Shown here one piece after another: positions 32,406 to 34,322 of a stretch of DNA of 51,364 bases (its first letter is position 1; each line of letters opens with the position of its first letter). The translations under genes and the position numbers were made by a program. Origin of the DNA: Chromera velia (Eukaryota). Under the pieces are notes generated by a model. That model had not been told where the DNA came from and made no database searches. It saw nothing but the letters and a program-made list of their open reading frames with translations. The DNA is taken from positions 1 to 51,364 of the forward strand of contig JAHBMJ010000289.1 of the NCBI GenBank assembly GCA_018398765.1, written 5' to 3'.

Positions 32406-34322
32406 ATGAAGCCCATTGCAGTGACGCAGTCTCGTCGTATTTCACGCTTTACCCCTCCCTACACGTTTTCCACGTTCGCGCGTGAGCTCAAAAGCCCCTC
32501 AGCTGAAAACACGAAGGTGCGCGCCACGAACGTAAGATGGGGGAGGAACAAGCCCAACACGAATGCCGAAAGTCAATCGGGATATTTTTTCACTCCAAAC
32601 CCTTTGAGGTTCTTTCTTACAAGCCGTCTTCAATGTGCAGCGTCACAAAAAGCCGGAGGTAGTGACGAACTGCAGAGTCGCTCTGTTCTTTTCCCTCCCT
32701 CCCACTTCCGTCTGACCTATTCCGCTCCTACCGTCACCGACGGGAATTCCGGAGCCACAAGCTCCCACCTGCCTCGGATCCAGTCCTCCCGCGTGGTCCT
32801 GCAACAGTGCAGGCAGTCTTGCTCATCTGCTTTCGAGTCTGTCGCTGCGACACGATTGGCACTTTTGGTACATGGAGGACGGGCAGGTTTCGGGAAGGGC
32901 GCTTCCAATGGGTGTTCTTATTTTTCGACTGTCATTGTGCCGAGGATTGAAAACGCGGGGGCAGTCCTGAGTGTAAAGTGTGCTGCCGTGACAGAGCGCG
33001 CTCGTCGTCCTATGGACGAAGGGCCCCCCCGTCAATGGCCCGTCTCGCAAAAACTTGTTCAGCAGAGACGATCGCTGTGTCCACATGGTAAGCAGAAGTA
33101 CCGCTGCACAGACTGCGGTGGTAAGGTCATGTGTGAGCACGGGCGGCAGCGACGGCAATGTAGAGAGTGCGGAGGCGAGGCATTTTGTGAGCATGGGAGA
33201 AGGCGTGCTCAGTGTGTCAAATGTGGTGGGAGCTCCATCTGTGCACACGGCAGACAGAGATATCACTGCAAAGATTGCGGTGGTCAGGGAATCTGTGAGC
33301 ACCGTCGGCAGCGTGCTTATTGTAAGGAGTGTGGGGGGAGAGAAATATGTGAACACGGACGGAGACGTTCACAGTGCAAGGAATGTAGGGGGGGCTCAAT
33401 TTGCATTCATGGACGTCGCCGTTTCTACTGTAAAGAGTGTGGTGGGCAAGCATTTTGTGAGCACGGTCGTAGGCGCTCACAATGCAAGGAGTGTGGAGGA
33501 AGCGCAGTTTGTATCCACGGGCGCATCAAGTATTGTTGCGTTGACTGCGGTGGAAGTTCCGTTTGTGAGCACGGGCGCCGCCGCAGTCAGTGCAAAGATT
33601 GTAAAGGTGGTTCGATTTGCGAACATGGACGTTACCGCTCCTACTGCAAGGAGTGTGGAGGAACCTCGATCTGTGAGCATGGACGCGTCAAGTACGTTTG
33701 CGTGGACTGCGGGGGGAATGGGATCTGCGAACATGGGCGTCAGCGGAGTAAGTGTCGAGAGTGCGATGGTGGTTCGATTTGCGAACACGGTCGTGAGCGT
33801 TCAAAGTGCAAACAGTGTGGGGGTGGCAGCTTTTGTGAACACGGACGCCAGAGAAGCGCCTGCGTAGAATGTCAGAAAGACAATCCCGCCTTTGCAGAGA
33901 GGCGGGAAAAACGAAGGATGAGGTACAAGGAGGACTTTGTCTATAGACTAGCACAGACAGTCAGAAACTCTGTCCATAAACGCCTCCGGGCTGTTCGAGA
34001 AGGCAAAGCACCGTCCGAGAAAAAACGCTCCCACGAATACCTCGGTTGCTCATTCCCCGATCTTAAAGCCCACCTCGAGAAGGACGACTTCCACGGCAAC
34101 CCTGGCATGTCCTGGGAAAAATACGGCTCCTTGTGGCACGTTGACCATATTGTGCCAATTCAGTACCGAGGTGCGAATGGTGTGAAGCCAGACATCAACA
34201 CAGTGATTTCCCGTCTCCATTACTCAAACCTCCAGCCAATGTGGTCAGGGGAGAACATCCGAAAGGGGAACAGATTTGTGGGTAAACCGCCACCGCACCC
34301 TCCCGTCACACCAACATTGTGA
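32406..34322 (+). CDS. Cys/His repeat-array (15 x 18 aa zinc-finger-like) protein with C-terminal HNH endonuclease; intronless
   Basis: ORF 32388..34322; first ATG at 32406, alternative start MDEGPP at 33012. 15 repeats of consensus CEHGRxRSxCKECGGxxI, then a basic helical linker and YLGCS...LKAHLE...GMSWEKYGSLWHVDHIVP...HYSNLQPMWSGENIRKGN, which contains the HNH DH...N...N catalytic pattern. Confidence 0.9.
   Translation: MKPIAVTQSRRISRFTPPYTFSTFARELKSPSAENTKVRATNVRWGRNKPNTNAESQSGYFFTPNPLRFFLTSRLQCAASQKAGGSDELQSRSVLFPPSHFRLTYSAPTVTDGNSGATSSHLPRIQSSRVVLQQCRQSCSSAFESVAATRLALLVHGGRAGFGKGASNGCSYFSTVIVPRIENAGAVLSVKCAAVTERARRPMDEGPPRQWPVSQKLVQQRRSLCPHGKQKYRCTDCGGKVMCEHGRQRRQCRECGGEAFCEHGRRRAQCVKCGGSSICAHGRQRYHCKDCGGQGICEHRRQRAYCKECGGREICEHGRRRSQCKECRGGSICIHGRRRFYCKECGGQAFCEHGRRRSQCKECGGSAVCIHGRIKYCCVDCGGSSVCEHGRRRSQCKDCKGGSICEHGRYRSYCKECGGTSICEHGRVKYVCVDCGGNGICEHGRQRSKCRECDGGSICEHGRERSKCKQCGGGSFCEHGRQRSACVECQKDNPAFAERREKRRMRYKEDFVYRLAQTVRNSVHKRLRAVREGKAPSEKKRSHEYLGCSFPDLKAHLEKDDFHGNPGMSWEKYGSLWHVDHIVPIQYRGANGVKPDINTVISRLHYSNLQPMWSGENIRKGNRFVGKPPPHPPVTPTL
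33078..33872 (+). repeat. Coding tandem array of 15 x 54-bp units (CxH-x6-CxxC)
   Basis: Exact 54-nt periodicity from TGT 33078 to TGT 33834; Cys and His invariant; codons diverged between units. Confidence 0.95.

What the first reader, a model, noticed from the sequence alone, without database searches (positions are those of the whole stretch)
32406..34322. Natural repeat-array nuclease: 15 tandem CxH-x6-CxxC fingers fused to an intact virus-type HNH endonuclease
Seen: a single-exon ORF in an otherwise heavily spliced genome, with 15 perfectly spaced, Arg-rich 18-aa Cys3His units, a basic linker and an HNH domain retaining WHVDH...N.QP...EN..K.N. Known: this HNH subtype (LGCS..LKxHLE..GMxWxNYGxWHxDH) resembles free-standing endonucleases of giant DNA viruses and phages, and I recall similar CEHG repeats from giant-virus and protist proteins. 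Inference: the architecture parallels engineered ZFNs/TALENs, with a modular DNA-reading array steering a ββα-metal nuclease. It may be a homing or selfish element, or a domesticated viral defence nuclease with long, reprogrammable specificity.
Basis: partly seen in the sequence, partly recalled or inferred. Interest (0 to 1): 0.9.

Follow-up and report, generated by a model that had tools for sequence, protein, structure and literature searches.

The report
Virus-related natural zinc-finger nuclease family
An intact algal gene joins fifteen short repeats, predicted to be zinc fingers, to a predicted DNA-cutting domain; relatives occur in giant viruses and virophages, where a few repeat positions change unusually fast, so it likely works as a natural sequence-programmed DNA cutter with an undescribed reading module.

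Summary
ORF 32406-34322 carries 15 exactly spaced 18-aa CxH-x6-CxxC units and an endonuclease-VII-like HNH domain with its D-H/N/N residues intact.

It is not a one-off. Its closest relatives are a multi-copy family in Chromera velia gene models (16 HNH cores in 10 models). Their sister group is array+HNH genes of virophage-like viruses and metagenome contigs. In giant viruses the same array is fused to other nuclease types.

In viruses these genes look like optional free-standing endonucleases, with filled and precisely empty alleles at one site. Their arrays homogenise, while unit positions 6, 8 and 9 change faster than synonymous sites in 41 of 53 arrays, a PRDM9-like pattern. The window's array is older, no longer homogenising, and under purifying selection. 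Contigs from runs guessed to be RNA tile the ORF without an intron joint.

The repeat matches no Pfam, NCBIfam or PDB entry, and ten paper searches listed nothing describing it. DNA binding, a recognition code, cleavage and the role in the alga are inferred, not shown.

Verdict: new variant of modular homing-type endonucleases; interest 0.78.

The parts
32406..34322 (+). Whole ORF, 638 aa (436 aa if started at ATG 33012)
   Evidence: second-longest stop-free frame in the window (644 codons)
32406..33077 (+). N-terminal extension (aa 1-224), Ser/Arg/Ala/Pro-rich, no homologue; may be coding or partly 5' leader
   Evidence: no Pfam hit; no match to 14 Chromera-named proteins or 2805 viral ORFs upstream of 32946; covered by RNA-guess contigs; a paralogue contig differs here by +9 and -12 nt, both in frame (my arithmetic on table 8)
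33078..33872 (+). Array of 15 x 18-aa CxH-x6-CxxC units (predicted Cys3His zinc fingers); positions 6, 8, 9 variable, 5 and 7 almost always K/R
   Evidence: register supported by array ends in 114 homologues; AlphaFold pLDDT 83-90 over units 7-15 with one repeated local fold
33873..34040 (+). Basic helical linker (aa 490-545); its first 20 residues are an insertion absent from the viral and metagenomic relatives aligned
34041..34283 (+). Endonuclease-VII-like HNH (beta-beta-alpha-metal) domain: D580, H581, N608, N617
   Evidence: phrog_1035 E 9e-9; strand-strand-helix in the model; BFVD matches to viral HNH proteins; weak PDB matches to CAD and PacI (Z 4.8, 4.0)
32172..34451 (.). Extent tiled by contigs of four runs guessed to be RNA (one study), no intron-type joint

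Best explanation
This gene encodes a predicted zinc-finger-array HNH endonuclease, likely of viral origin, in which the repeats likely read a long DNA sequence and the nuclease would nick or cut beside it. Shown: the architecture; intact catalytic-motif residues; a multi-copy host family that is sister to array+HNH genes of virophage-like viruses and metagenome contigs; exchange of nuclease domains behind the same array; optional presence at a viral locus; accelerated change at unit positions 6, 8, 9 in viral arrays. Inferred: each 18-aa unit binds one zinc by C1, H3, C10, C13, grips the backbone with K/R at 5 and 7, and reads bases with residues 6, 8, 9, which lie at and just before a short predicted helix. 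Adding, removing or mutating units would retarget the enzyme. In viruses this would drive 'intronless homing' or damage competing genomes. In the alga, one capture was likely amplified into a repertoire with a conserved nuclease and diverse arrays, most likely kept to cut invading viral or mobile DNA.
For: Nuclease: D-H, N, N motifs intact in the window and W-H-V-D-H in 15 of 16 HNH cores of 10 Chromera gene models; phrog_1035 hit. Modularity: among 114 non-Chromera-HNH top hits, 68 carry a PD...ExDE-type tail (nuclease label from motif recall) and 24 an HNH tail (20 by pattern, 4 added by eye). One virophage-like contig has two array genes with different HNH subtypes. Viral context: penton match E 1.5e-23 for L007; NCLDV major capsid gene next to the array gene in L083; top BFVD hit a Pithovirus protein, E 6e-25. 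Tree: window plus 14 Chromera domains form one clade (SH-aLRT 99), joined with 24 array-bearing HNHs (99) among 155 rows; repeated with 61 rows at 99 and 96. Mobility in viruses: array gene abuts the same neighbour in 6 of 46 informative loci, three alleles precisely empty. Selection: pN at 6, 8, 9 exceeds pS in 41 of 53 arrays against 20 of 53 for control positions 4, 16, 17. Five virophage-like orthologues are 78-90% identical in the nuclease but 19-46% at 6, 8, 9. Host retention: all 60 ligands intact and pN below pS in the window; RNA-guess contigs tile the ORF.
Against: No binding, cleavage or target site was or could be shown. Positions 6, 8, 9 were chosen after seeing their variability; position 17 is nearly as fast as 8 (0.37 both), and the pooled excess is modest (0.43 against pS 0.36). 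Gene conversion between units breaks the independence of the pair counts. The window's own array shows no excess (pS 0.69, pN 0.42). Arrays at one viral insertion site differ in number (5-9) and in variable residues, which a fixed target does not predict. The empty-site test used a distant subtype with D-E in place of D-H. The Chromera clade is sister to, not inside, the viral clade, on 108-111 columns and quick trees, so transfer direction is by parsimony only. Six of 10 Chromera models read the array in another frame: frameshifted copies or mis-predictions. No evidence here links the algal copies to defence specifically.
Confidence: 0.45

Rival explanations
1. Same biochemistry (array-guided nuclease), but in the alga it is a purely selfish gene. 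It would bias its inheritance by cutting alleles that lack it, and its breaks would promote tandem duplication, with no host benefit.
For: Viral relatives behave like optional free-standing endonucleases (concept in PMC2988022, passages read). Six of 10 Chromera models contain two HNH cores, implying neighbouring copies, and several may be frameshifted, as expected of birth and decay.
Against: The window's array has stopped homogenising yet keeps every ligand. No element ends, transposase or viral hallmark genes were found around it. Homing copies to alleles and does not by itself explain many paralogues (inference).
Confidence: 0.25
2. The array is a general nucleic-acid-affinity or spacer module (DNA or RNA, or branched DNA as for T4 endonuclease VII) with tolerant surface positions, so the enzyme cuts with little or only structural specificity.
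For: Variable residues are drawn largely from a small set (S at 8 in about half of units; R, Q, I at 6). Arrays at one viral site share no common series. The nuclease family hit is endonuclease VII, which PMC5714182 (passages) describes as structure-specific.
Against: Tolerance alone predicts pN near pS, not above it in 41 of 53 arrays (43 of 53 for positions 6 and 9). Free-standing endonucleases cut hundreds to thousands of bases from their gene (PMC2988022), so different arrays at one site are compatible with different targets.
Confidence: 0.2
3. The gene is a passive relic of an integrated virophage or giant-virus fragment, duplicated with flanking DNA and now decaying or read only by background transcription.
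For: Flanks are AT-richer than the window (GC 0.38-0.40). Paralogue models are often out of frame. RNA status of the runs is a guess.
Against: A 638-codon frame stays open with 60 of 60 ligands and the catalytic motif intact despite near-saturated synonymous divergence between units. GC of the ORF matches the host (0.53-0.55). No other viral gene was found in the window.
Confidence: 0.1

Closest known systems
Free-standing and intron-encoded HNH homing endonucleases of phages and giant viruses (T4 mob genes, I-TevIII, I-HmuI; Bodo saltans virus intron endonucleases)
   Same: HNH nuclease joined to small modular DNA-binding units 'beads on a string'; intergenic, optional genes (PMC2988022 passages; PMC5714182 passages). 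The HNH fold matches a Bodo saltans virus 'intron encoded endonuclease' in BFVD (E 1e-5; PMC5871332 passages).
   Different: The binding part is a long homogeneous array (4-19 units) of one 18-aa Cys3His unit with no family model; it shows concerted evolution with fast positions; here it sits as a multi-copy nuclear family in a eukaryote, with no intron or intein.
phrog_1035 / T4 endonuclease VII-like His-Me finger nucleases
   Same: D-H...N...N active-site pattern; E 9e-9; phage relatives at 35-38% identity in 80 records.
   Different: Phage relatives lack the array (100 of 155 domains in the tree); no Pfam Endonuclease_7 or HNH hit.
PRDM9 zinc-finger minisatellite
   Same: Concerted evolution of units with accelerated change at a few positions and variable unit number (PMC2779102, abstract only; here).
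   Different: PRDM9 uses C2H2 fingers and a methyltransferase (unit size 28 aa recalled); no homology; DNA contact by the fast positions is known for C2H2 but only inferred here.
Engineered ZFNs and TALENs (recalled)
   Same: Repeat array followed by a nuclease domain; nature swaps at least three nuclease types behind this array.
   Different: Natural; 18-aa units; HNH rather than FokI; no code known; oligomeric state unknown.
Viral proteins auto-named 'DnaJ central domain protein' (e.g. A0A481Z8I3, Pithovirus LCPAC304)
   Same: Top structural match, 43% identity over 276 columns; Atlas clusters of the same name, 100% viral.
   Different: The name appears to be an automatic label from the CxxCxG motif (inference); no DnaJ family hit in Pfam or NCBIfam.

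Membership tests
His-Me finger (HNH) nucleases | beta-beta-alpha fold | tested here: met
   Model has strands at 245-249 and 277-281 and helix 282-289; BFVD HNH matches E<=2e-6; PDB matches are weak but mostly HNH proteins
His-Me finger (HNH) nucleases | general-base His with metal-binding Asp and Asn residues | tested here: met
   D580, H581, N608, N617 present; D, N, N invariant in 24 aligned sequences
His-Me finger (HNH) nucleases | metal-dependent nucleic-acid cleavage | not testable with these tools
   needs an assay
Free-standing homing endonucleases | optional intergenic gene with empty alleles in relatives | tested here: inconclusive
   Met for a distant viral subtype (6 of 46 filled, 3 precisely empty); not testable for the window locus, as no genome is held and both DNA runs hold the gene
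Free-standing homing endonucleases | site-specific cut in an allele lacking the gene, with biased inheritance | not testable with these tools
   no target known
Intron- or intein-encoded homing endonucleases | gene lies inside a self-splicing intron or intein of a host gene | tested here: inconclusive
   No interrupted host gene is evident in the flanking ORFs, and RNA-guess contigs show no splice joint; no Rfam search was run
Endogenous virophage / Polinton-like element | capsid, ATPase, protease, polymerase or integrase genes and terminal repeats around the gene | tested here: not met
   2805 ORFs from fetched viral loci match the window only at this ORF; no long inverted repeats in 29500-37500 other than microsatellites
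C2H2 (classical) zinc fingers | C-x2-4-C-x12-H-x3-5-H unit and Pfam match | tested here: not met
   unit is C-x-H-x6-C-x2-C, 18 aa; no Pfam hit
DnaJ central cysteine-rich domain | CxxCxGxG repeats matching the family model | tested here: not met
   no Pfam or NCBIfam match at E<=0.1
Programmable repeat DNA readers (TALE-like, PRDM9-like) | a few hypervariable positions per unit on a conserved scaffold, under diversifying selection | tested here: met
   entropy peaks at 6, 8, 9 in all three tail classes; pN>pS in 41 of 53 viral and metagenomic arrays; not in the window's own array
Programmable repeat DNA readers (TALE-like, PRDM9-like) | unit-to-base code shown by binding | not testable with these tools
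   needs SELEX or a structure

The most novel reading that the evidence does not exclude
The 18-aa Cys3His unit is an undescribed, compact, modular DNA-reading repeat with a code in positions 6, 8 and 9. Viruses use it as an interchangeable targeting array for at least three nuclease types, and an alga has turned it into a repertoire of natural zinc-finger nucleases, a restriction-like defence built from repeat-coded readers.
Probability: 0.35. Interest if true: 0.93.

Novelty: new variant of a known kind. Interest (0 to 1): 0.78.

Why it matters
A repeat half the size of a TALE unit (size recalled), with thousands of natural variants already fused to nucleases, would be a new DNA-recognition scaffold whose code can be learned from natural arrays. 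It would also give giant viruses and virophages a fast way to retarget mobile nucleases, and protists a candidate protein-guided antiviral nuclease repertoire. The family sits in databases under uninformative or misleading names, so even the annotation is a gain. The test is direct: express the array, select its DNA, swap units.

Tried and rejected
No whole genome is held, so paralogue counts, tandem clusters and flanks could not be mapped. The search of protein representatives never ran, so the family was not searched without word or length limits. The exact protein is not in the 15-billion collection.

A search among proteins of 764-2180 aa found no longer fusion of the HNH (0 of 28 candidates; weak evidence). 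Single-sequence AlphaFold was poor (pLDDT 46) and was set aside. PDB sequence searches gave nothing significant. Foldseek on PDB had no E<=0.001 match. The wide structural search covered only model residues 161-295, so the finger fold was not tested on its own. A homodimer prediction of the nuclease gave no verdict. No run on record as RNA was listed; the RNA-guess runs give no cover of the flanks, which is not counted as evidence.

The PD...ExDE tail got no Pfam, PHROG, NCBIfam or PDB confirmation; calling it a PD-(D/E)xK nuclease rests on recalled motifs. The careful tree did not finish and quick trees were used; I left out 10 D-E-type rows, 9 Chromera domains and most non-array rows. test_one_clade was not run.

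Ten paper searches listed no title or abstract describing this repeat or family; most listed papers were not opened, no supplements were read, and subscription papers are largely outside the library. The chromerid genome paper has 0 occurrences of 'zinc finger' or 'HNH' in its main text. Two look-ups of earlier findings returned nothing.

Rejected: DNA-slippage artefact (units too diverged); the +1 frame over the array as the true product (open for 291 aa, but the Cys/His frame is the one shared with intact viral genes); the alternative register CxxC-x5-CxH.

Full report
Observation. The ORF 32406-34322 (+) encodes 638 aa. Fifteen C-x-H-x6-C-x2-C units sit at aa 225-489, every spacing 18 aa, against one stray match in the rest of the six frames. 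Units share only 22-41 of 54 nt, and 582 of 956 same-residue codon pairs use different codons, so the protein pattern has been kept while the DNA drifted. The C-terminal part matches phrog_1035, endonuclease VII (E 9e-9), with D580-H581, N608 and N617 in place. Pfam and NCBIfam give nothing meaningful. Residues 1-224 have no homologue, and ATG 33012 is an alternative start. A paralogue contig matches 32476-32721 and 33076-33542; by my arithmetic on its coordinates it differs by +9 and -12 nt, both in frame, a weak hint (about 1 in 9 by chance) that the extension is coding.

Host family. A search with the nuclease region returned 12 proteins among 84 candidates; 10 are Chromera velia gene models at 58-79% identity. 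I infer the window comes from that alga or a close relative. These 10 models hold 16 HNH cores, 15 with W-H-V-D-H; six models hold two cores, which suggests neighbouring copies. Their in-frame arrays have 2-9 units with different variable residues. Six read the array in another frame; since that frame is also open in the window, these may be mis-predictions or frameshifts. Four further Chromera models carry arrays of 11-14 units without a nuclease. In two DNA runs, 433 and 445 contigs lie on 31000-35200 at 80% likeness, and 32 and 36 contigs differ at one HNH position; this shows many relatives but is no copy number.

Transcription. Contigs from four runs guessed to be RNA (one study) tile 32172-34451 with no intron-type joint. 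No single near-identical contig bridges array and nuclease; two overlap by 30 nt across the junction (33578-33897 and 33868-34082). Paralogous contigs in those runs do contain both array-like and HNH sequence (joints 33302-34038 and 33361-34025).

Wider family. The 436-aa protein has 3311 hits at E<=1e-5 among 7990 candidates scored; I classified the best 120. Six are the Chromera HNH models. Of the other 114, 68 have the array before a PD...ExDE...RFNP tail (PD-(D/E)xK-like by recalled motif, unconfirmed), 24 before an HNH (20 by pattern, 4 by eye, three of them with D-E for D-H), and the rest have no recognised tail. In IMG/VR the array+HNH gene occurs in small contigs with an ATPase, a protease-like gene (recalled motif) and a penton (L007, E 1.5e-23 to 3j26_N; weak Pfam Sputnik V18-19), that is virophage-like. 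It also occurs next to an NCLDV major capsid gene (L083), and arrays occur in GVMAG contigs. L240 has two array genes, one with this HNH and one with another HNH subtype, the latter between ATPase and protease where L008 has the first type. BFVD's top match is a Pithovirus protein auto-named 'DnaJ central domain protein' (E 6e-25), and the Atlas's nearest clusters are 100% viral. For the array alone the top Atlas cluster is 79% eukaryotic (low recognition score, weak evidence).

Tree. Among 155 HNH domains (100 without array, 40 with, 15 window and Chromera), the host domains form one clade (SH-aLRT 99) that groups with 24 array-bearing domains, including the virophage-like ones (99). A 61-row tree with 11 new metagenome loci repeats this (99 and 96). 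The host clade is sister to the viral and metagenomic group, not nested in it; all deeper rows come from viral contigs or unnamed metagenome proteins, so a viral origin is the parsimonious reading, not a tested one. Array-bearing HNHs fall in three places in the tree, consistent with repeated joining of array and nuclease.

Structure. With a 24-sequence alignment AlphaFold gave pLDDT 81 (pTM 0.48) for units 7-15 plus nuclease. Each unit repeats a short hairpin closed by bridges at positions 18 and 6 and a three-residue helix at 7-9. Arrays start at CxH and end at CxxC (only 8 and 1 exceptions in 114), so C1, H3, C10, C13 are the likely zinc ligands (inference; no coordinates or zinc were available). 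The nuclease has the strand-strand-helix core, with weak PDB matches to CAD and PacI (Z 4.8 and 4.0).

Evolution of the unit. Entropy peaks at positions 6, 8, 9 (2.4-3.6 bits) in all three tail classes, while 5 and 7 are nearly always K or R. Five virophage-like orthologues are 78-90% identical in the nuclease tail, 68-90% at other unit positions, and 19-46% at 6, 8, 9; in four of the five, units within a gene are more alike than units between genes. Across 53 arrays from fetched loci (near-duplicates dropped; closest unit pairs only), pN at 6, 8, 9 is 0.43 against pS 0.36 (fourfold sites 0.27) and exceeds pS in 41 of 53; control positions 4, 16, 17 give 0.30 and 20 of 53. In 28 arrays with pS under 0.4 the figures are 0.35, 0.22 and 25 of 28 (that filter favours the result). 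The positions were picked on a partly different set, position 17 is about as fast as 8, and conversion makes pairs non-independent. The pattern parallels PRDM9 (PMC2779102, abstract). The window's array differs: pS 0.69, pN 0.42 at 6, 8, 9 and 0.22 elsewhere, that is old, not homogenising, and constrained.

Mobility in viruses. Eighty loci were fetched with a neighbouring gene of L095; 11 lacked the adjacent gene and 23 had too little flank. Of 46 informative loci, 6 (one is the query locus) have the array gene abutting and 40 do not. L194, L195 and L228 have the two flanking genes 7 nt apart, against 1056 nt in L085; three more loci hold other inserts there. Arrays at this site have 5-9 units and different variable residues. 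That argues against one fixed target, but free-standing endonucleases cut hundreds to thousands of bases from their gene (PMC2988022, passages), so several targets are possible. This subtype has D-E for D-H and is distant from the window's clade.

Local context. No ORF among 2805 from the viral loci matches the window outside this gene, and no long terminal repeats were found. The flanks are AT-richer. A short high-copy repeat ends at 31873. The gene is therefore not part of a recognisable integrated virus or transposon here.

Mechanism and verdict. The best reading is an array-guided DNA endonuclease, mobile in viruses and kept by the alga as a repertoire with a conserved nuclease and varied readers. 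I put array-guided cutting at about 0.7, split 0.45 for a host-kept (likely defensive) role and 0.25 for a selfish one; non-specific binding 0.2; relic 0.1. It works like a free-standing homing endonuclease or a ZFN. It meets the sequence and fold criteria of His-Me nucleases, fails those of C2H2 fingers, DnaJ domains and endogenous virophages, and is untested for homing. Ten paper searches listed no description of the repeat; five papers were opened (passages of PMC5871332, PMC4501334, PMC5714182, PMC2988022; abstract of PMC2779102), and no supplements, where such genes might be tabulated. Novelty: new variant of a known kind; interest 0.78.

Noticed in passing
L240:2387-3010 (-) and 7437-8318 (+): One virophage-like contig carries two array genes with different HNH subtypes; the shorter sits between ATPase and protease-like genes, where L008 has the other subtype.
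   Followed up: partly
L085, L088, L094, L095, L098, L100, L116, L202, L220, L231, L233: A clade of array+HNH genes has D-E instead of the D-H catalytic pair yet is conserved and shows filled and empty alleles.
   Followed up: partly
L192, L213, L221 (junction seen empty in L194, L195, L228): The same viral intergenic junction holds other inserts of 0.9-1.6 kb; two end in HNH-like sequence by eye, suggesting a hotspot for unrelated endonuclease genes.
   Followed up: no
window 33850 and 33071: RNA-guess contigs read A>G at both places; 33850 changes Gln482 to Arg at variable position 6 of unit 15, 33071 is silent. Strain difference is the simplest reading.
   Followed up: partly
window 31840-31873: End of a short dispersed repeat with very high summed contig depth and diverse downstream sequence; single in this window.
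   Followed up: partly
window 32377-32409: A 10-codon upstream ORF whose stop overlaps the ATG at 32406; it may influence which start is used.
   Followed up: no
window 36775-37275 (-): Intronless 166-aa ORF covered by RNA-guess contigs, no Pfam match.
   Followed up: no
window 25249-27903 (+) and 23334-24251 (-): Ankyrin-like ORFs in three overlapping frames and an intronless RNase T2 gene (Pfam E 7e-18).
   Followed up: no
L009:4953-5924; proteins P0016, P0021, P0028, P0047, P0065: Nuclease-free arrays occur in a giant-virus MAG (shorter units) and in Chromera and Hanusia gene models, candidates for repeat-coded DNA-binding regulators.
   Followed up: no
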